DNA of 24,000 nt from Methanofollis sp. W23 (GCF_017875325.1 NZ_JAGGMN010000001.1:1484140-1508139), one strand, 5' to 3'. Shown: positions 4,130 to 14,800, counted from the first letter of the stretch. Numbers and translations are program-made. Notes: a model not told the origin generated them from the sequence alone.

Positions 4130-5344
4130 CTAGCCTGGGAGAGACGGGGCCATGACACGGCAGATGCCTTGCTCCCCGCCACCAGGCAGAGGAGCGTGCA
4201 GTTCGGCAAAGACCCCTCTCGCTTCCTCGTCCCTTCCCAGGTAGATGGTGCCGTAGAAGAGCACCGGGCACACGTCTCCATCCGCACCCTGGATTGCGAG
4301 GGGATATTCCCTGACTGCGCCATCGGCCATCACCATCTTGCATACGTCCTCTGCACGCCCTGGATCGGTGAAGAGCGAACAGAAATCAGTGCCGATCAGG
4401 GCGGTCCGTCCCAGGCCGGTCAATGTCTCGGTCGCCGCGTTGACGTCGGTGATCCGCCGGTCAGGACCGATGGTCACCAGCGGGTCGATATGTGCCTCGA
4501 TCAGGGTGCGGCGGTACTCCCCGGCCAAGATGAGTTCTTTCTCTGCCTGTTTCTGTGCCGTGATATCGCGGACCGACTCGATCGCCCCGGCGACATTTCC
4601 GTTCTGGTCGTACAACAGGGTTACCTTGGCCCAGAGCACCGCCGGTCGCCCGTCCACCGACGCCTCCTCGGTCTCTGCAATGATCAGCCCCTTCTCCTGC
4701 TGAATGACGGTATAGGCGGCGTCCACCTCTTCGCCGGGATGAAGGAGGGCGTCCACCAGTGTCGGCCTGGAGATGCCGTAAAAGGGAGACGCATAGACGT
4801 GGCCGCCTGTCCCGACAATCTCGCGTGCCGCCACCCCGCTCATCTCCTCCATCGCTCGGTTCCAGGCAAGAATCCTGCCGCCACAGTCGACGGCAAAGGT
4901 CGCATCAGGGAGGTGGTGAAAGATCTCAGAGATCCGGCGTTCAGATACACGGACCTCCTGGTCGGCCTGGTATTTCTCCACGGCCTGCCTGACTGCGTTC
5001 CGCAGTTCTGCAAACTGCGACCTGGCCTCTCCCCCCTTATGGATATAGAAGTCGGCCCCCTGGTTGAGCGCCTCGATCACCACCTCTTCTCTCCCCCGCC
5101 CGGTAAAGATAATGAACGGGACGGTGATCCCGGCACATCTCAGTTCAAAGAGGAAGTCGATCCCATTCATGCCAGGCATCTCATAGTCGGAGATGACCGC
5201 ATCAAACTCCGTGCTCTCGATAAGTCCAAGGGCTTCCTCTGCAGAGGTGCAGGTGGTGACCTGCACCTCGCCGCTGCGTTCAAGAAAGAACTGCGTCATC
5301 TCAAGGATGACCGGTTCGTCGTCGACATGGAGAACCTGCATCAT
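4130..5344 (-). CDS. Response regulator receiver domain protein with two PAS domains (REC-PAS-PAS, no recognisable output domain)
   Basis: Start at the ATGATG at 5339-5344 ('MMQVLHVDDEPVILEM...DAVISDYEMPGMNGIDFL...IIFTGRGREEVVIEALNQGADFYIHKG' is a CheY-like REC domain). Two PAS-like segments follow ('IFHHLPDATFAVDCGGRILAWNRAMEEMSGV...' and 'LIEAHIDPLVTIGPDRRITDVNAATETLTGL...'). The upstream part of ORF 4130..5542 has no domain signal. Confidence 0.9.
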   Translation of the reverse strand: MMQVLHVDDEPVILEMTQFFLERSGEVQVTTCTSAEEALGLIESTEFDAVISDYEMPGMNGIDFLFELRCAGITVPFIIFTGRGREEVVIEALNQGADFYIHKGGEARSQFAELRNAVRQAVEKYQADQEVRVSERRISEIFHHLPDATFAVDCGGRILAWNRAMEEMSGVAAREIVGTGGHVYASPFYGISRPTLVDALLHPGEEVDAAYTVIQQEKGLIIAETEEASVDGRPAVLWAKVTLLYDQNGNVAGAIESVRDITAQKQAEKELILAGEYRRTLIEAHIDPLVTIGPDRRITDVNAATETLTGLGRTALIGTDFCSLFTDPGRAEDVCKMVMADGAVREYPLAIQGADGDVCPVLFYGTIYLGRDEEARGVFAELHAPLPGGGEQGICRVMAPSLPG

Positions 5345-5544
5345 CGCCGCCCCACTCCTCGAGAAGCGGAGGGCCAGGTGATTCGAAGGAGTATGGAAAT
5401 ATTTTTCGCTGAAATCATGCCATTCCATTCTATCTTTTGGTAAAGATATGAGGGACCCAAAGATCCTTCCAGGTATCCGCCAAAACCGAAACTGTACAGG
5501 GGAGGCATGATCACAATTCTTGAAGAGGAGGGTGCCGCCCACTG

Positions 5545-5770
5545 CCCCTCTTCAAAGCCAGCCCCCGCCAGAGAGAGAGAGGTCTGGCTTCTGCCCTCTC
5601 ATCCATATCTTCTCCCCAGGGTTCTGGGGGAAGATCCCCGGACTTCGAGAGAGAGAGAGAAAGTGGTGTTCCCACCATTTGTCCTGCTCAGAAGGACGAG
5701 CACGGATCCACGCACACCCCATAACCATACAGGAATTCTCTTCAGGTATGCTTGAAAGATCCACGCAAAA
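5545..5770. repeat. Intergenic repeat family, locus R3 (short rearranged copy)
   Basis: rc(5662-5689) 'gagcaggacaaatggtgggaacaccact' resembles 21545-21573 'gagcaggacactatatgggaccaccact'. A C-module-like hairpin lies at 5607-5635 in plus orientation. (GA)n tracts sit at ~5572-5583 and ~5647-5661. Confidence 0.6.
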
Positions 5771-5790
5771 GTCTCCTCTCTCCAGGAGAC
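5764..5790 (-). terminator. Hairpin plus T-run immediately after the pLGIC stop codon
   Basis: Minus-strand reading after the stop (5798-5800): 'gtctcc-tggagaga-ggagac' forms a 6-bp stem (5771-5790). It is followed by 'tttt' (plus-strand aaaa at 5767-5770). Archaeal termination typically uses oligo-T. Confidence 0.45.
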
Positions 5791-5797
5791 CGTCCCC

Positions 5798-7627
5798 TCA
5801 CGAGAAGGCCGTGGTGATCAGCACGATCGAGACGATGTACGCGATCGGGTAGAACCAGACCAGCACGCGGTCGAGGCGTTCGGCCACCTCTTTCTGCTCC
5901 TTGGTCGCAAGCCACTTGAGATAGAGGTTGTAGACCACCGTGAGCCCGCTGACCACGAAGGTGGTGATCAGGACGGCGTCAAGGAAGGTGAGATAGCCAA
6001 GGCGGGGGAGGTCGCCGGCGATGGTGAAGTTGAAGGCGATGAAGAGGAGGAGGTTGGCGCTTGCCACGTCGGCACGCTTGCTGTAGTCCTTGAGGAGGAA
6101 GGTGACCCACCCGAGCATGATCAGGATGAAGATCGGGACAAAGATCCTGAGGATATAATACTCAAGGTGCCGCTTCGCATCAAAGCCGAACGAGAACCTG
6201 GAATGGACCTGGTTCTGCTCGACGGTGTCGACCTCGGTCCAGTATCCCGTGATATACCACTCCTCCTCGCCGAGTTGCGTGCCGACGATCGTCTCGCCCT
6301 CCCAGTCGGCATACCTGAAATACTCTTCCGGGTACAGGGCCTGGATCCTGATGTAGAAGGTCTGGGTGTCGAATGGATAGTCCTTGAAGTAGAAGTCAGG
6401 GGCCTGGAAGGTTGTCCAGAAACGCTCAAAGTAGGTCGCCGTACCATTCGAGGTGATGGTGATGAGTTGGTTCTGGGTCCACCTATTCCCCTGCTGGTTG
6501 AAAAGGGTGAACTCAGGCCACCTCGTCCCTTCGGCCTCGACAAAGTCGTCGATCTCCCGGTAGATCTTGAATGGGACGCCCTCTTCCTGGGGGTCGAAGG
6601 CAAGCACAGGGTCGTTCCACTGCATCCTGATGTTGGCGACGGCAGCGTAGTTCTCAGCCTTCTGATCGACATTGGTGATCTGGTCCAACTCCACCGCGGC
6701 CAGGACGGTGACCGGTTCCCGGATCACCTTTCTCCCACCGAGGACGGCGGTGCCGTCGAGCACCTCGGGATCGTTGATCCCGACGCGGAGCCTGAATGTA
6801 CCTTCGCCCTCCCCCGCCTCGACACGGAGGACCAGGCCCTCGGTCTCGTCGGCCCTGAGTTGATACGAGAGCGCCGCCCTGGTCCCATGGTCCAGAAAGT
6901 TTGCCGCCATCATGGGCTTCCCGTCCACGCTCTCAAGGATGAGGACCGGTCTCAGGTCGCCGGAGACCGAGTCCACCACAGCATGAACGGTGTCCCCGGC
7001 CTCGAGGTTCTCGAGCGGGTAGAAGGTCGAGGTCTTGTCGGCGGTGAGATTGCCGCTCCGCTCCTCGGCACCTTTGCCTGCCGGCGGCATCGCAGGGTCT
7101 GGGACGGCAAGGACCACGCCTGGCGTCGGTGTCGCCGTGCCGTAGAGTACACCAGGTGCATCGATCCCGAGCAGAAGGCTATATTCGCCGAAGGTCTCGG
7201 TCAGCGGCGACGAAGTGACAATGAGTGGATAATCGCCGTCTTTCGGGACGACCCACTTGAGGACGGCAGTATGTCCTTCAGCGCTGTCGTCGTCCCAGGC
7301 AAGGAAGAACCGGTCGGCGGCCCCGGTGATCTCCGCGACCGGTTCCCCGCCACCCCTGACCCCGGTCTGGACCATGGTCCAGAACTCCTCTCCCAGGGTG
7401 GTGCGGTTTGTCTCGGGCGGGGCGATCGCGACGAAGGGGTCGAGGTTTCCTGAACTCCGGTTCACCCGCACCGAGATGGTCTCCCCGGCCTGTAAGTCAG
7501 GGAGAAGATAGACCACACCGCCTTCTTCGAGCACCCTGCCTTTGAGGGCCTGCACCTCTTCTGCAGAGACCAGGGCCGGCACGGCAAGCATGAGGCATAT
7601 GACCACGAGCAATGCCCGGCAGTCCAT
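5798..7627 (-). CDS. Secreted multidomain pentameric ligand-gated ion channel (Cys-loop/GLIC-ELIC superfamily) with two N-terminal beta-sandwich-like repeats
   Basis: Start at ATG 7627 gives the signal peptide 'MDCRALLVVICLMLAVPALVSA'. The C-terminal ~280 aa carry the ECD motifs 'NIRMQWNDPVLAFDP' (6590-6619) and 'YPFDTQ' (6362-6379, the Cys-loop position without cysteines). Four TM helices follow: M1 'YYILRIFVPIFILIMLGWVTFLL', M2 'SANLLLFIAFNFTIAGDLPRLGY' (compare GLIC 'IAFNI...LPKTPY'), M3, and M4 'VLVWFYPIAYIVSIVLITTAFS'. The N-terminal ~300 aa contain an internal duplication. Confidence 0.9.
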   Translation of the reverse strand: MDCRALLVVICLMLAVPALVSAEEVQALKGRVLEEGGVVYLLPDLQAGETISVRVNRSSGNLDPFVAIAPPETNRTTLGEEFWTMVQTGVRGGGEPVAEITGAADRFFLAWDDDSAEGHTAVLKWVVPKDGDYPLIVTSSPLTETFGEYSLLLGIDAPGVLYGTATPTPGVVLAVPDPAMPPAGKGAEERSGNLTADKTSTFYPLENLEAGDTVHAVVDSVSGDLRPVLILESVDGKPMMAANFLDHGTRAALSYQLRADETEGLVLRVEAGEGEGTFRLRVGINDPEVLDGTAVLGGRKVIREPVTVLAAVELDQITNVDQKAENYAAVANIRMQWNDPVLAFDPQEEGVPFKIYREIDDFVEAEGTRWPEFTLFNQQGNRWTQNQLITITSNGTATYFERFWTTFQAPDFYFKDYPFDTQTFYIRIQALYPEEYFRYADWEGETIVGTQLGEEEWYITGYWTEVDTVEQNQVHSRFSFGFDAKRHLEYYILRIFVPIFILIMLGWVTFLLKDYSKRADVASANLLLFIAFNFTIAGDLPRLGYLTFLDAVLITTFVVSGLTVVYNLYLKWLATKEQKEVAERLDRVLVWFYPIAYIVSIVLITTAFS

Positions 7628-7803
7628 CCGAGATAGTCCCCCTCTTCGTCCTGGCAGCACCGGCGCGGTGGTCCCCGCTCCTGCCAGCACGACTCTGCTC
7701 TCTACTGCAGAGGACGACATATATGTCTTTCCTCGGTGTCAGGCATGGCGGCCGGAGAGTCGTCTTTTCTGCGGCACATTCTTCCCTGGTATTCCCATGC
7801 GCT

Positions 7804-10252: not shown

Positions 10253-11119
10253 TCAGTAGATCGGGGTGCCTTCCTTCGCGGTGATGGCGGAGAACCCGGC
10301 CATCAACTGCTTGGTGATCGGGCCGGGGGTACCGGTCCCGATGGTCCGGCCGTCGATGGTGACGATCGGGCCAAGTTCGGCCGCCGTGCCGGTGACAAAG
10401 ACCTCGTCGGCAGTATAGAGGTCGAAGTAGCCGACATCGCGCTCCATCACGGTGAGCCCGAGGGCCGCCGCCGCTTCGAGGACGACATGCCTGGTGACCC
10501 CACGCAGGTTGTTGAGGGTGTGCGGGGTGATGAGGACGCCATCTTTGACCAGGAAGAGGTTGTCGCCCGAGCCCTCGGTGATGTTGCCGTGGGTGTCGAG
10601 GAAGATTGCCTCGTCGCCGCCCTTGTAGTTGGCCTCGATCTTCGCAAGGATGTTGTTGAGATAGTTGAGGCTCTTGACATTCGGCGGGAGAGCGTCGGCG
10701 GCGTTTCTCCTGACCGAGACCGTGACGGCAGTAAGCCCCTTCACGTAGAGGTCGCCGTACATCGCGCCCCACCCGGCGGCGATGATGAAGACCGTCGGGG
10801 TGGCGCAACTCCTGGGGTCCAGGCCCATGTTGCCCTTGCCGCGGGTGACCACCGGCCTGATATAGGCGTCCTTGAGGTCGTTCCTGCGCAGGGTCTCAAG
10901 GAGCGCCTCCTTGAACTCCTCCTTGGAGAGGGGCACCTCAAGGTCGATCGTCTTGGCCGAGTCATAGAGCCGGTCAATGTGCTCGTCCAGTCTGAAGACC
11001 CGGCCATTGTATGCCCGGATCCCCTCAAAGACACCGTCACCGTACAGCAGGCCGTGGTCAAAGACTGAGACCTTCGCCTCCTCCTCGGGGACAAACTCAC
11101 CGTTGAGGTAAATGATCAT
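10253..11119 (-). CDS. ilvE: Branched-chain amino acid aminotransferase (class IV aminotransferase)
   Basis: '[58 protein letters not shown]...' is a textbook short-form IlvE N-terminus. 288 aa. It lies 34 nt downstream of cfbB on the same strand. Confidence 0.92.
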
Positions 11120-11153
11120 GAATTATCTGTTGGCGCGATGTGGGTATAGAAGT

Positions 11154-12542
11154 TTATGGTTCGTTCCGCCGTTCCCTGCACCTGGCGACGAATCCACGGT
11201 ACAGGGCGGCGCTTGCCACCGGGTGGAGATGGGTGTAACTCGCGAGTACCTGGCCTCGGACCGCCCCGTCCTTCCTGCCGGCGATCCCGGTCCCTCTGGA
11301 GAGGCGGTAGGCATAGGTCGTCCCTTCGGCAAGGTCGACCTCAGAGTAATGGAACTCGTGCCCGCGGAACCCCCAGTCCCCGAAGGGACATGCCGGACCG
11401 GCACGCCCCTCGACATAGCCCAGGGTCCGGCGGCCCGGGATAGCGGCGTCGCCAGGGAGGACGCCGCACATCTCGTAGACCTCCTCGTGCTCCCGCCCCT
11501 GCCATCCTGATCGGAGGGTGAGACGGTCGGTGAGGTAGACGAGCCCGCCGCATTCGGCATAGATGGGGACGCCGTCTCCGGCCGCGGCACAGAGTCCTTC
11601 TCGCATCCGGAGATTTTTCTCAAGCCCTTCAGCATAGAGTTCAGGATACCCGCCGCCGAGAATATACCCGTCGGCCTCTGGGAACGAGTCGTGGATCGGG
11701 CTGAAAGGAACGACCTCGGCCCCGAGCGCCCCAAGGAGATCGAAGAGGTCGTGGTAGTAGAAGTTGAAGGCCTCGTCATAGGCGACCGCGACCCTGAGGT
11801 CTGGCGCCTCCTGCACCGGCGCAAAGATCTCCCTGACACGCCCCTGCGGGGTGTACTCGGTCATCAGTCCCTTCAGGGTGTCGAGGTCGATGTATGAGGC
11901 GACCACCTCCTTGATGGCCTCGACCCGTGCCAGGAACTCGTCGCCCTCCTGGCCCTCGCGGTACGGGACCAGCCCGAGGTGGCGCATCGCAAGCCGCATC
12001 CCCTCGTCTTTCGGGACCGCCCCGATCACCGGGAGCCCGCAGTAGTGTTCGATGGCTCTGGTTGTTTTGTCACGGTGACCTTCGGTCCTGATGTTGTTGA
12101 GGATGACGCCGGCGACCCTGACGTCGGGGTCGAATCCGGCATACCCGTTGACGATGGCGGCGGCGCTCCTGGTGATGCTCCTGGCGTCCACGACCAGGAC
12201 CACAGGAAGCCCGAGGGCCTTGGCGACCGAGGCGGTGCTGCCTGCATCGCCGGTGGCCTCGGCCCCCTCGAAGAGCCCCCGCACCCCTTCGACCAGGGCG
12301 AGGTCGGCGCCCTCCGCCCCGTGCTCGAAGACCCCCTGCATCTGGGCCGGAGACATCACATAGGAGTCCAGGTTCCGGCAGGGCCTGCCGGTGACCGCCG
12401 TGAGATATGACGGGTCGATGTAGTCCATCGCCACCTTGTAGGTCTGGACCGAGGCCTCCCGCGAGAGGAGAGCGGCGAGGGCGAGGGTAATGCTCGTCTT
12501 CCCGCTGCCAGACCGGTCGCCTGAGATGAGGAGGGCTTTCAT
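11154..12542 (-). CDS. cfbB: Ni-sirohydrochlorin a,c-diamide synthase (CbiA/CobB-family amidotransferase)
   Basis: 'MKALLISGDRSGSGKTSITLALAALL' is the CbiA-type P-loop. The C-terminal GATase-like part contains 'YAECGGLVYL'. 462 aa. The cfbB assignment (rather than cobamide cbiA) rests on clustering with the NflD-like, MurD-like and small CbiX genes. Confidence 0.85.
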   Translation of the reverse strand: MKALLISGDRSGSGKTSITLALAALLSREASVQTYKVAMDYIDPSYLTAVTGRPCRNLDSYVMSPAQMQGVFEHGAEGADLALVEGVRGLFEGAEATGDAGSTASVAKALGLPVVLVVDARSITRSAAAIVNGYAGFDPDVRVAGVILNNIRTEGHRDKTTRAIEHYCGLPVIGAVPKDEGMRLAMRHLGLVPYREGQEGDEFLARVEAIKEVVASYIDLDTLKGLMTEYTPQGRVREIFAPVQEAPDLRVAVAYDEAFNFYYHDLFDLLGALGAEVVPFSPIHDSFPEADGYILGGGYPELYAEGLEKNLRMREGLCAAAGDGVPIYAECGGLVYLTDRLTLRSGWQGREHEEVYEMCGVLPGDAAIPGRRTLGYVEGRAGPACPFGDWGFRGHEFHYSEVDLAEGTTYAYRLSRGTGIAGRKDGAVRGQVLASYTHLHPVASAALYRGFVARCRERRNEP

Positions 12543-12546
12543 CAGT

Positions 12547-13617
12547 TCACTCTCCGTTCATGCTCCGCAACACCGCGCCGAACTCGCTCTCCACGATCTC
12601 CCTCACTCCGAGAGTCTTGGGGTGGAGGTCGACCTCGACGACGACCATGGCATGGCCGATCGCCTTGAGGGGCGCGACCTGGCGCGGGCCGTTGGTGACC
12701 GAGATCGTCTCGATACCGTCGGTGTATTCTGGCGGGACGGCATGGGGCACCCCGACCAGGAAGGCGAAGTCTGGTTTGATCTCCTGGATCCGTTCGCCGA
12801 CGGCCTCGCCGTTCTCCCCATACTCGTCGAGGGCGCCGAGGAGTGCGGGGTCGATCCCCCGCTCTTTCATCCCGGCCAGGATACGAGCGGCGTCGGCCCG
12901 CACCTTGGGGAGGCCGCGGTCTTCGAGGTTGGCAAGATAGGTGATCTCGGCCTCAGGGCAGACCTCGTGGAGGGCGCAGAGTTCGTCGGCGAACATGTAC
13001 GCCGTCTCTTTCTTTGCATTGAGCACCGCGACCCCCTTCTTCCCGCTCCTCGCAAGGTCGAGGAGACGATGGGCGGCACGGTGCTTGAGGTCGCCCCGTG
13101 AAGGCTCGATGTACGGCTGCGAGGCCGCACCCCTGAGACGTTCCACCTGGTTTGCCGCGGCGAGGAGACGGCGCTGCCGTTCGAGTTCGTCCCCGGCGAT
13201 CCACCCGGCCCGTGCGGCGGGCTCGAGGACCGCAAGGACGCCGTCGATGTTCTCCCTGAACCCGGCATGGATCTCGACCCCGATGGTCGGGGTCTCCACC
13301 CCTGAGCCTTCGATGGCCGCCTCGATGTCCTCGCCGATGATCATCGAGACACAGGTCCCGATCACTGCCATCCGCGTCGGAGAGAACTCTGCCTCGGCGT
13401 ACCTGAGCACCCGCTCCAGAACACCCTGGCCACCGAAGATGAACTCGTTCTCGCCGAGCGAGGTGGTCAGGACCCGCATCCCGTCTTCTTCAAGGAGGCG
13501 GGCATGCTTGAACGAGCACCCCGACGGGCCGTGGAGGATGGCCACCTCCACTCCCAGGTCGCGGGCGGTGTACAGGGAGGCGACGATCGAACTTGGCCGT
13601 GGTTGTACGTATTCCAT
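12547..13617 (-). CDS. cfbD: Ni-sirohydrochlorin a,c-diamide reductive cyclase, NifD/K-like subunit (NflD)
   Basis: Nitrogenase component-1-like: 'VASLYTARDLGVEVAILHGPSGCSFKHARLLEEDGMRVLTTSLGENEFIFGG'. Start at ATG 13617 ('MEYVQPRPSS'), 1 nt after the cfbE stop. The ORF-track extension to 13656 overlaps cfbE. Confidence 0.85.
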   Translation of the reverse strand: MEYVQPRPSSIVASLYTARDLGVEVAILHGPSGCSFKHARLLEEDGMRVLTTSLGENEFIFGGQGVLERVLRYAEAEFSPTRMAVIGTCVSMIIGEDIEAAIEGSGVETPTIGVEIHAGFRENIDGVLAVLEPAARAGWIAGDELERQRRLLAAANQVERLRGAASQPYIEPSRGDLKHRAAHRLLDLARSGKKGVAVLNAKKETAYMFADELCALHEVCPEAEITYLANLEDRGLPKVRADAARILAGMKERGIDPALLGALDEYGENGEAVGERIQEIKPDFAFLVGVPHAVPPEYTDGIETISVTNGPRQVAPLKAIGHAMVVVEVDLHPKTLGVREIVESEFGAVLRSMNGE

Positions 13618-13618
13618 T

Positions 13619-14800
13619 CTATCTCCATGTCTTGACGGCAAGGACAATAGTCCCACCGTTGCTCATCTGCTCTGCTCTGCGGATCCCGTCCTCCAGGTCG
13701 GTGGCCGTCACGGCGTCGGGAGGGAGGTCGGCTGCATCGTAGTCGCCGACGACGACCAGGCGGTCTGGGCTGATCGCCGCCACCGCCGCCTGCACCTCCG
13801 CAGCCGGGAAGCCCTCGCAGATGGTCTGGCCTTCGGTCCCGATCACCAGGACAAGAGGGGCGCCGCCCCCCAGGGCCCTGGCGTACGCCGCGGCATCAAG
13901 GGCGACCTCGCGGCAGGCACCGCTGTTGGCGCAGTCGACGGTGAGGCCGCCAGCCTCACGCGAGACCGCCATCCTGCCTGGCAGGGGGGCGAAGGTCGCA
14001 AGCCCGGCCGGGTCGTACCCGAGCAGGCAGGCCGCGGCGGCGGCCAGGTGCAGCGGTGTCCGGTAGCCCCGCAGGGCAAGGAGGGGGTTCTCGAATGAAC
14101 CCTGCACTTTTCCGTACTGGTAGGTGCAGCGCGTCCCTTCGACGGCGGCGACCTCGTCGGCGACGACGCCGCCGGGCACACGCACCCCTTTGGGGACGAG
14201 CACCAGTGGCGCTGCCGCAAGGGAGCGGACCTTCTCGGTAAGAGCCCGCTTCTTCCCGGCGGCACAGGGATAGTCGTCGCCCGAGGTGAGGATAGCAAGG
14301 TCGCCTGCGCCAGAGACTCCAAGAGATTCTTCAGCGACGAGCCAGCCCTCGCACGCGACCGCCTCTTTTGCCGCGGGCAGGACCGAAGCAGGGGTGATCG
14401 AGCGTCTCCAGAGACGTTGACGCGCAGGAAAAAGAGAAGTTTCCATCGAGGTGTGAAGCACCCCACGGCCGCCGAGCACATGTGCCAGGGCCGTCGCCGT
14501 GGTAGTCTTCCCCCTCGCCCCTGTGACCTCGACCATCATCCTTGGGCGGCATGGGGCAAGGAGGCGGCGGACCGCCTCATGATGCGTGACGCACTCCGGC
14601 GCCCGCCCGAGCAGGGGATGATCGGGATCGAGATGGACCGGGGCGACGACCAGGTCATAGGACCGTCGCGCCGCCTCGGCAGCGGGGATCCCGCCCTCGC
14701 CGCGGTAGACATCCACCGCATCGACGGTGTGTCCGGCCTTCTCAAGCGCCCCCGCAATCTCGGTGCCGCCGTGGATCGTGTCGAGGACAAGAATTTTCAT
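13619..14800 (-). CDS. cfbE: Coenzyme F430 synthetase (Mur-ligase family)
   Basis: 'MKILVLDTIHGGTEIAGALEKAGHTVDAVDVYRG' followed by the Mur-ligase P-loop 'VTGARGKTTTATALAHVL'. 393 aa. Its start abuts the cfbA stop (14800/14801). Confidence 0.85.
   Translation of the reverse strand: MKILVLDTIHGGTEIAGALEKAGHTVDAVDVYRGEGGIPAAEAARRSYDLVVAPVHLDPDHPLLGRAPECVTHHEAVRRLLAPCRPRMMVEVTGARGKTTTATALAHVLGGRGVLHTSMETSLFPARQRLWRRSITPASVLPAAKEAVACEGWLVAEESLGVSGAGDLAILTSGDDYPCAAGKKRALTEKVRSLAAAPLVLVPKGVRVPGGVVADEVAAVEGTRCTYQYGKVQGSFENPLLALRGYRTPLHLAAAAACLLGYDPAGLATFAPLPGRMAVSREAGGLTVDCANSGACREVALDAAAYARALGGGAPLVLVIGTEGQTICEGFPAAEVQAAVAAISPDRLVVVGDYDAADLPPDAVTATDLEDGIRRAEQMSNGGTIVLAVKTWR

What the first reader, a model, noticed from the sequence alone, without database searches (positions are those of the whole stretch)
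5798..7627. Archaeal pentameric ligand-gated ion channel fused to a duplicated N-terminal beta-sandwich-like module
The C-terminal half has every hallmark of a prokaryotic Cys-loop-superfamily channel. These are the 'WNDPVLAFDP' motif, 'YPFDTQ' at the Cys-loop position without cysteines, a Pro-containing M1, a GLIC-like M2 ('IAFNF...LPRLGY'), a very short M3-M4 linker and M4. Upstream of the canonical ligand-binding domain, after a signal peptide, there are ~300 extra residues forming two homologous modules. Module 1 reads 'DLQAGETISVRVNRSSGNLDPFV ... GEYSLLLGIDAPGVLYG'. Module 2 reads 'NLEAGDTVHAVVDSVSGDLRPVL ... GTFRLRVGINDPEVLDG'. Their pattern resembles pre-peptidase C-terminal (PPC)-type beta sandwiches. 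Bacterial pLGICs with extra N-terminal domains are known (for example DeCLIC). To my knowledge no methanogen pLGIC has been characterised, and the ligand and physiological role here are unknown. Acidic residues just before M2 ('KRADVAS') hint at cation selectivity, but this is weak.
Basis: partly seen in the sequence, partly recalled or inferred. Interest (0 to 1): 0.65.

Follow-up and report, generated by a model that had tools for sequence, protein, structure and literature searches.

The report
Methanogen copy of the DeCLIC channel
This Methanofollis gene encodes an intact, full-length relative of DeCLIC, a bacterial calcium-sensitive ion channel whose structure is already solved, so the extra N-terminal double beta-sandwich is a known architecture seen here in an archaeon, not a new fusion.

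Summary
The minus-strand ORF 5798-7627 encodes a 609-aa protein with a signal peptide, two homologous jelly-roll lobes, a pLGIC extracellular domain with a Pro-loop, and four TM helices.

An AlphaFold model matches DeCLIC chains at Foldseek E~1e-59 over about 600 columns (36-37% identity).

All published DeCLIC Ca2+ side-chain ligands are present: D63/D113/D114 in NTD1, and E325 with E454-456 at the ECD interface. The pore positions are present too: D520 (2'), L527 (9') and F534 (16').

The two lobes are true duplicates (hhalign 99.8%, E=3e-28). They are PPC-like at family and fold level.

The gene is single-copy and under purifying selection (dN/dS about 0.14). It has no conserved operon partner.

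Its relatives form a methanogen group (Methanomicrobiales plus Methanotrichaceae) set among many bacterial sequences, mostly Chloroflexota. The distribution in archaea is patchy (12 of 401 genomes of the phylum), which fits inter-domain transfer.

Most likely function: a Ca2+-inhibited, pH-modulated cation channel. This is inferred by homology, not shown.

Verdict: a new member of a known kind, of modest interest. The scan has not noted this protein on other DNA.

The parts
5798..7627 (-). Complete CDS of a DeCLIC-type pentameric ligand-gated ion channel (609 aa plus stop codon at 5798-5800)
   Evidence: ORF list and translation. phmmer against PDB: DeCLIC 6v4a, E=3e-121, query residues 19-605. 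dN/dS about 0.14 against two congeners.
7562..7627 (-). Signal peptide, residues 1-22 (MDCRALLVVICLMLAVPALVSA)
   Evidence: Read from the sequence. Model helix 3-14 followed by a low-pLDDT segment at 16-20. Homologues have equivalent hydrophobic N-termini.
7133..7561 (-). NTD1 jelly-roll lobe (residues 23-165) with a two-helix insert and the Ca2+ Site-1 ligands D63, P64, D113 and D114
   Evidence: NTD model with pLDDT 94.5. Foldseek hit to the DeCLIC NTD 6v4b (TMt 0.83). Ligand mapping. Conservation.
7073..7132 (-). Pro/Ala-rich linker between the lobes (residues 166-185)
   Evidence: Sequence TPTPGVVLAVPDPAMPPAGKG. Almost no regular secondary structure in the model: only a two-residue strand at 175-176.
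6740..7072 (-). NTD2 jelly-roll lobe (residues 186-296), a duplicate of NTD1 without the helical insert
   Evidence: hhalign of NTD1 against NTD2 profiles: 99.8%, E=3.3e-28. Models.
6167..6739 (-). Canonical pLGIC extracellular domain (residues 297-487). It holds the Pro-loop YPFDTQ, E325 in the beta1-beta2 loop, and the loop-F triplet E454-E456.
   Evidence: Pfam Neur_chan_LBD at 303-467. sTeLIC 6fl9: E=1e-82 and TMt 0.9. Ca2+ ligand mapping. Conservation.
5801..6166 (-). Transmembrane domain M1-M4 (residues 488-609). Pore residues are D520 (2'), L527 (9') and F534 (16').
   Evidence: Model helices 488-511, 515-537, 548-573 and 579-608. DeCLIC pore numbering from bioRxiv 10.1101/2025.02.27.640520. 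Conservation. dN is about 0 in this part.
5767..5790 (-). Terminator-like hairpin (7-8 bp stem, GGAGAG loop) followed by TTTT, starting 8 nt after the stop codon
   Evidence: Sequence. RNA fold of -15.9 kcal/mol, z = -2.5. This suggests a monocistronic gene, by inference.
7700..7735 (-). Upstream block conserved among three Methanofollis loci (GGAAAGAC-TATATGTCGTCCTCTGCAGTA), a possible BRE/TATA promoter. It contains the ATG at 7720 that the ORF listing takes as the start.
   Evidence: DNA alignment A4. The promoter role is an inference only, and no transcript data were available.

Best explanation
The gene encodes a DeCLIC-family pentameric ligand-gated (Pro-loop) ion channel of a Methanofollis methanogen. 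After export and signal-peptide removal, five subunits would assemble in the cytoplasmic membrane. A large, acidic ectodomain faces the space under the S-layer. In each subunit this ectodomain has two PPC-like jelly-roll lobes (NTD1, NTD2) and the canonical ECD. By homology with DeCLIC, Ca2+ bound between subunits (E325 on the beta1-beta2 loop, E454-E456 on loop F) and in NTD1 (D63, D113, D114) holds the channel closed and stiffens the NTD. Loss of Ca2+, and probably a pH change, releases these contacts and opens a pore gated by L527 (9') and F534 (16'). Cations pass the D520 (2') ring. The NTD tunes gating kinetics rather than forming the pore. Shown here: the architecture, fold, residue conservation, purifying selection and phylogenetic placement. 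Inferred: pentamer assembly, Ca2+/pH gating, cation selectivity and any physiological role.
For: Homology to DeCLIC is end to end (E=3e-121, residues 19-605). The AF2 model (pLDDT 86.6) matches DeCLIC chains at Foldseek E~1e-59 over about 600 columns and sTeLIC at TMt 0.9. All published DeCLIC Ca2+ side-chain ligands (PMC12664993; PMC9897478) map to identical residues in the query. They are conserved in 79 to 88 of the 88 aligned sequences, or of the 87 that have an NTD. In the same 88 sequences the pore positions hold too: 2' is acidic in all 88 (66 Asp, 22 Glu), 9' is Leu in all 88, and 16' is Phe in 86. The ectodomain has pI 4.2-4.5, like the negatively charged DeCLIC surface. dN/dS is about 0.14 overall (NTD 0.17, ECD 0.10, TMD 0-0.05), so all three parts are under selection. 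DeCLIC is reported to conduct cation currents on Ca2+ depletion, to be more active at pH 5, and to have an NTD that speeds gating.
Against: The gating stimulus of DeCLIC itself is still debated. The close NTD-less relative sTeLIC is gated by alkaline pH, according to its PDB entry title. So the direction of pH dependence cannot be transferred. The query's subclade has lost a CxC motif (DeCLIC C371/C373) kept in 78 of 88 sequences, which could alter ECD behaviour. Two backbone-ligand positions of NTD Sites 1 and 2 differ in side chain (G126 to A, Y129 to H). Identity to DeCLIC is only 36-37%.
Confidence: 0.75

Rival explanations
1. It is a DeCLIC-fold channel whose real agonist is an unidentified small molecule (amine, organic acid or metabolite) bound at the orthosteric or vestibular ECD site. 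Ca2+ and pH would then be only modulators.
For: Other prokaryotic pLGICs are ligand-gated. ELIC is activated by GABA (PMC3430861 abstract). sTeLIC, the closest NTD-less relative, has been solved with 4-bromophenethylamine bound (9ewa). The DeCLIC authors say the conditions needed for gating remain open.
Against: No agonist is known for any member of this subfamily. The strongest conservation lies at the Ca2+ ligands and the loop-F EEE, and I did not examine any aromatic ligand box.
Confidence: 0.15
2. The tandem PPC-like lobes mainly act as a binding or anchoring module for an envelope polymer or partner (S-layer, polysaccharide, or surface of a syntrophic partner). Gating would then report attachment or mechanical load rather than free Ca2+.
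For: The best non-DeCLIC structural match is the tandem collagen-binding domain of ColG. The NTD profile also finds the same module repeated up to about 14 times in large non-channel proteins carrying PPC and DUF6055 hits, which I read as likely surface proteins; their location was not checked. The NTD evolves somewhat faster than the rest (dN/dS 0.17).
Against: In DeCLIC the lobes pack against the ECD and bind Ca2+. According to the papers read, deleting the NTD changes kinetics only. No conserved neighbouring gene suggests a partner.
Confidence: 0.08
3. It is a decaying or silent horizontally acquired gene without function in this host.
For: The distribution is patchy, with 3 of 11 same-genus genomes lacking it. 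Some relatives (G083, G104) carry it as two separated matches. No transcript evidence is available.
Against: The frame is intact and dN/dS is about 0.14, with dN about 0 in the TMD. Every key residue is retained. G+C equals that of the surroundings. A terminator-like hairpin and a conserved upstream block are present.
Confidence: 0.02

Closest known systems
DeCLIC (Desulfofustis deltaproteobacterium pLGIC; PDB 6v4a, 6v4s, 7q3g/h, 9ev1-9eva, 9ftg-j)
   Same: Same four-part architecture (NTD1, NTD2, ECD, TMD) and same length class. It aligns over residues 19-605. All Ca2+ side-chain ligands are identical, as are the loop-F EEE, 9' Leu, 16' Phe and the N/W vestibule constriction, and 2' is acidic. 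The model superposes over about 600 columns.
   Different: Identity is only 36-37%. The host is an archaeal methanogen, not a deltaproteobacterium. 2' is Asp rather than Glu. The CxC motif (C371/C373) is replaced by E349/V351, and the mature protein has no cysteine. In the tree DeCLIC sits on a long branch away from the archaeal clade. The query is not functionally tested.
sTeLIC (PDB 6fl9), pLGIC of a Tevnia jerichonana symbiont (host named from my own knowledge), gated by alkaline pH
   Same: ECD and TMD are 41-42% identical (E=1e-82, TMt 0.9). It shares the EEE loop F, E on the beta1-beta2 loop, 2' Asp, 9' Leu and 16' Phe.
   Different: sTeLIC has no NTD (320 aa). It lacks the N/W vestibule residues (R and D instead).
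GLIC / ELIC (canonical prokaryotic pLGICs)
   Same: Same ECD beta-sandwich plus four-helix TMD fold. GLIC matches at E~1e-23 with TMt 0.81.
   Different: Only 22-23% identity, with no NTD. The acidic ring differs: GLIC is known to use E-2' (my own knowledge), whereas here it is at 2'.
PPC domain (Pfam PF04151), e.g. the ColG collagen-binding domains and the Tk-SP C-terminal jelly roll
   Different: The query's own lobes do not reach PF04151 at E<=1. NTD1 carries a two-helix insert. Here the module is fused to an ion channel rather than to a protease.

Membership tests
pLGIC / Pro-loop receptor superfamily | Extracellular ligand-binding-domain profile match above the curated threshold | tested here: met
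   PF02931 scores 42.6 bits against gathering 26, residues 303-467. TIGR00860 gives 4.7e-26 and NF033918 gives 1e-30, both below their full-length cut-offs.
pLGIC / Pro-loop receptor superfamily | Pro-loop (beta6-beta7) motif with conserved P-F-D | tested here: met
   YPFDTQ at 417-422. P418 and D420 are invariant in 88 sequences.
pLGIC / Pro-loop receptor superfamily | Four TM helices with the M1 proline, 9' Leu in M2, and a short M3-M4 linker in prokaryotes | tested here: met
   Model helices 488-511, 515-537, 548-573 and 579-608. P498 and L527 are invariant. PF02932 itself is only weak (E=0.39).
pLGIC / Pro-loop receptor superfamily | Homopentameric assembly forming a central pore | not testable with these tools
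   Only monomer prediction was available.
DeCLIC-type multidomain pLGIC | End-to-end homology including both N-terminal lobes | tested here: met
   phmmer E=3e-121, query 19-605 against DeCLIC 32-632. Foldseek E~1e-59 over about 600 columns.
DeCLIC-type multidomain pLGIC | Two jelly-roll lobes (NTD1 with helical insert, NTD2) | tested here: met
   NTD model with pLDDT 94.5. Match to 6v4b at TMt 0.83. hhalign NTD1 against NTD2 at 99.8%.
DeCLIC-type multidomain pLGIC | NTD1 Ca2+ Site 1 side-chain ligands (DeCLIC D76, D123, D124) | tested here: met
   Query D63, D113 and D114. They are D in 87, 86 and 81 of the 87 NTD-bearing sequences.
DeCLIC-type multidomain pLGIC | Interfacial ECD Ca2+ site (DeCLIC E347 and loop-F E479-E481) | tested here: met
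   Query E325 and E454-E456. E325 is conserved in 87 of 88 sequences and E454 in 88 of 88.
DeCLIC-type multidomain pLGIC | Pore residues: 2' acidic, 9' Leu, 16' Phe | tested here: met
   D520, L527 and F534 against DeCLIC E547, L554 and F561.
DeCLIC-type multidomain pLGIC | CxC motif after beta2 (DeCLIC C371/C373). This is widely conserved but not a published defining feature. | tested here: not met
   Query has E349/V351. The motif is present in 78 of 88 sequences and is lost in the query's three-sequence subclade and in one bacterial clade.
DeCLIC-type multidomain pLGIC | Cation current inhibited by Ca2+ and modulated by pH and the NTD | not testable with these tools
   Requires electrophysiology. 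Known only for DeCLIC.
PPC domain (PF04151) | Profile match of the lobes to PF04151 | tested here: inconclusive
   The query gives no hit at E<=1. Of 75 family NTDs, 36 hit (best 1.7e-6). The NTD profile hits a protein with 10 PPC repeats at 2e-54. The ColG CBD fold matches at E=2e-8.

The most novel reading that the evidence does not exclude
The DeCLIC-type channels of methanogens descend from a single transfer from bacteria such as Chloroflexota that share anoxic, syntrophic habitats. They would serve as external Ca2+/pH sensors that feed directly into the Na+/H+ membrane gradients on which methanogen energy conservation depends. The cysteine-free Methanofollis subclade, which has lost the CxC motif, would be a gating variant.
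Probability: 0.2. Interest if true: 0.5.

Novelty: new member of a known kind. Interest (0 to 1): 0.3.

Why it matters
It extends a structurally well-studied model channel (DeCLIC, described in the 2022 and 2025 papers read here as the only pLGIC with a characterised or solved NTD) to a coherent archaeal clade. It also shows that the Ca2+ ligands in both NTD1 and the ECD are family-wide, which supports the published Ca2+-site assignments. A naturally cysteine-free, strongly conserved orthologue could be a convenient second system for biophysics, for example site-directed labelling. A channel of this kind in methanogens raises a testable question about ion sensing in organisms whose energy metabolism relies on ion gradients. 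It does not reveal a new architecture or mechanism.

Tried and rejected

Literature access: the primary DeCLIC paper (Hu et al. 2020, PNAS) is not held under its DOI or PMC id. Its results are cited only as summarised in later papers.

CxC motif: a literature search for the role of DeCLIC C371/C373 returned nothing relevant.

Operon partner: blastp of the window's ORFs against 20 archaeal loci found neighbours shared only with the closest species, and none across the clade.

PPC by the query alone: there was no Pfam hit at E<=1. Support came only from family members, the profile search and the fold.

Internal repeat by BLASTP alone: it was weak (29 residues) and needed profiles.

Upstream ATG 7720 as start: rejected. 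The 31-codon extension is not kept in frame in L002, and close homologues are annotated at 609 aa.

Plus-strand ORF 6167-7453 (428 aa): I take it as an antisense shadow ORF of a 60% G+C gene. Selection is visible in the minus-strand frame.

Separate archaeal origin for the Methanosarcinales sequence L034: not supported. The tree with all 26 archaeal rows held together is not rejected (p-AU 0.72) and has the higher likelihood.

Full report
**Observation**

The finding's coordinates hold. On the minus strand an ORF is open from 7720 to 5798 (640 aa from the first ATG).

- All quoted motifs are present. A monomer AlphaFold model built on 106 homologues (mean pLDDT 86.6) gives four helices at 488-511, 515-537, 548-573 and 579-608, so the M3-M4 linker is five residues.
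- Pfam Neur_chan_LBD is above its gathering score (42.6 against 26 bits, residues 303-467).
- NCBIfam LGIC_1 and TIGR00860 match at 1e-30 and 5e-26.

**Start codon**

I favour ATG 7627, for these reasons:

- It yields a canonical signal peptide.
- A GAGGGGG run lies 10 nt upstream.
- The closest database homologues are 609 aa long.
- In an alignment of three Methanofollis loci, the stretch between the upstream ATG (7720) and 7627 carries a 1-nt length difference in L002. The upstream ATG is therefore out of frame there.
- That upstream ATG sits inside a strongly conserved block (GGAAAGAC-TATATG...). I read this, by inference only, as a possible BRE/TATA promoter.

Directly after the stop codon there is an 8-bp hairpin followed by UUUU. 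The gene is therefore probably monocistronic.

**What it is**

The decisive result is the sequence search against solved structures.

- The protein aligns from residue 19 to 605 with DeCLIC (6v4a/6v4s; E=3e-121), covering both N-terminal lobes.
- The NTD-less sTeLIC matches residues 302-603 (E=1e-82).
- GLIC matches at about 1e-23.

Foldseek with the model agrees. DeCLIC chains come first (E~1e-59, about 600 aligned columns, 36-37% identity). sTeLIC follows (TMt 0.9), then GLIC (TMt 0.81).

The "extra 300 residues" are therefore not a new fusion. They are the NTD1/NTD2 module already solved in DeCLIC. A separate model of residues 23-300 (pLDDT 94.5) matches the isolated DeCLIC NTD crystal structure 6v4b at TMt 0.83.

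**The duplicated module and the PPC question**

The two lobes are homologous. Pairwise BLASTP sees only 29 residues (E=2e-4). Profiles built from 75 family NTDs align NTD1 to NTD2 with 99.8% probability, E=3.3e-28, over 108 columns. The difference is a two-helix insert in NTD1, as described for DeCLIC.

- The query itself has no PF04151 hit, but 36 of 75 family NTDs do (best 1.7e-6).
- The best non-DeCLIC fold match is the tandem Ca2+-binding collagen-binding domain of ColG (5iku, E=2e-8).
- A profile of the NTD searched against 1.84 billion representatives finds 198 proteins at E<=1e-30. These include non-channel proteins in which the unit is repeated and which Pfam calls PPC. One example is P0211, with PPC E=8e-94 in 10 stretches.

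**Functional residues**

I mapped the published DeCLIC sites through the alignment. Counts are from the 88-sequence alignment, or the 87 of those sequences that have an NTD.

| Site | DeCLIC | Query | Conservation |
|---|---|---|---|
| NTD1 Ca2+ Site 1 | D76, P77, D123, D124 | D63, P64, D113, D114 | 81 to 87 of 87 |
| Interfacial ECD Ca2+ site | E347 and loop-F E479-481 | E325 and E454-456 | 79 to 88 of 88 |
| Pore | E547 (2'), L554 (9'), F561 (16') | D520, L527, F534 | 2' acidic in all 88, 9' Leu in all 88, 16' Phe in 86 |
| Vestibule constriction | N405, W407 | N381, W383 | N in 44 and W in 69 of 88 |

The ectodomain is strongly acidic (pI 4.2-4.5), and the mature protein has no cysteine.

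One family feature is missing. A CxC motif (DeCLIC C371/C373) is present in 78 of 88 sequences. In the query and its two closest relatives it is replaced by E/V or E/S. It is also lost independently in one Gammaproteobacteria/Nitrospirota clade and is absent from sTeLIC. Its role is unknown to me.

**Is it a live gene?**

Against the two closest congeners (85-86% protein identity) dN/dS is about 0.14. By domain it is 0.17 for the NTD, 0.10 for the ECD and 0-0.05 for the TMD. The genome holds one copy. G+C is the same as in the surroundings.

**Organism, distribution and origin**

Named homologues place the window in Methanofollis: 85% identity to M. formosanus. The neighbouring genes have CobB/CobQ-like amidotransferase and nitrogenase-like oxidoreductase domains. 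These are the kind expected of F430 synthesis, which fits a methanogen.

- The full-length type is found in 8 of 11 same-genus genomes and in roughly 27 of 200 other genomes sampled from the order.
- It is found in 12 of 401 genomes of the phylum.
- In species-representative genomes 206 loci were confirmed. The 80 best include Methanomicrobiales, Methanotrichaceae and one Methanosarcinales MAG. They also include many Chloroflexota, Thermodesulfobacteriota, Gammaproteobacteria, Nitrospirota, Zixiibacteriota and Xenococcus.

A quick maximum-likelihood tree of 88 sequences groups Methanomicrobiales plus Methanotrichaceae (SH-aLRT 97). When rooted on sTeLIC, this group lies inside an otherwise bacterial, poorly resolved radiation. 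Holding all 26 archaeal rows together is not rejected and gives a better likelihood (p-AU 0.72).

Together with the patchy archaeal distribution, this fits one (or few) bacterium-to-archaeon transfers followed by losses. The direction depends on a long-branch outgroup and on phyletic breadth, so it is an inference.

Surveys have already recorded archaeal pLGICs: Methanosarcina in PMC549065, and ten further genera in PMC4795631. I found no paper characterising an archaeal one.

**Context**

The downstream gene on the same strand is a REC-PAS-PAS protein. This neighbour and the others are shared only with the closest species and not across the archaeal clade. No conserved partner exists.

**Mechanism**

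By homology, the most likely function is a homopentameric cation channel that external Ca2+ holds closed, both at the ECD interfaces and in NTD1. It would open on Ca2+ depletion and a pH change, with the NTD modulating kinetics (DeCLIC data as summarised).

- The identity of the protein as a DeCLIC-family pLGIC is near certain.
- The gating stimulus is about 60% likely in my view. DeCLIC's own gating is unsettled, and sTeLIC responds to alkaline pH.

Rival readings are listed in the Rival explanations section: an unknown small-molecule agonist, an envelope-binding role for the PPC-like lobes, and a silent gene.

**Verdict**

The object is a new, archaeal member of a known and structurally solved kind. 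Interest is modest.

Noticed in passing
window 6574-6582 (residues 349-351, minus strand); compare L002, L003, L051, L065, L071, L078, L091, L092: A CxC motif after beta2 (DeCLIC C371/C373) is conserved in 78 of 88 family sequences. It is lost in the query's Methanofollis subclade and, independently, in a Gammaproteobacteria/Nitrospirota clade. The mature query protein has no cysteine at all.
   Followed up: partly
proteins P0157 (871 aa), P0160 (712 aa), P0185 (925 aa): Some pLGICs carry three or four copies of the jelly-roll lobe before the Neur_chan_LBD domain instead of two. The number of lobes therefore varies within the family.
   Followed up: partly
proteins P0124, P0151, P0152, P0187, P0211: The same lobe occurs as 4 to 14 tandem repeats in large non-channel proteins. 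These carry PPC and/or DUF6055 (PF19527) hits. They are a possible source of the channel's NTD module.
   Followed up: partly
L002:3325-3327 (gene start equivalent): In the 86%-identical relative (G014) the codon equivalent to the query's ATG start is ATC, and the conserved upstream ATG is out of frame. That orthologue must start at another codon (perhaps an in-frame TTG or GTG a few codons in), or its start is damaged.
   Followed up: no
G083:C23:5893-7718 and G104:C125:12872-15452: In two genomes of the same order the channel gene matches as two separated pieces: adjacent and slightly overlapping in G083, about 1.3 kb apart in G104. Possible causes are frameshifts, pseudogenes, an insertion or assembly errors.
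   Followed up: no
G085, G158, G182, G166, G075, G017, G011, G090: A different family of the same order carries short (open frames of about 330-370 aa) canonical pLGICs. They are only distantly related to this one (E about 1e-11 to 1e-14, 24-30% identity over the TMD and late ECD).
   Followed up: no
window 4130-5542 (-): The downstream same-strand gene encodes a receiver domain plus two PAS domains with no output domain (Pfam). It is adjacent to the channel gene only in the closest relative examined (L003).
   Followed up: partly
window 10253-14800 (-): A run of genes with class IV aminotransferase, CobB/CobQ-type amidotransferase and nitrogenase-like oxidoreductase domains. This is the kind expected of coenzyme F430 synthesis and fits a methanogen genome.
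   Followed up: no
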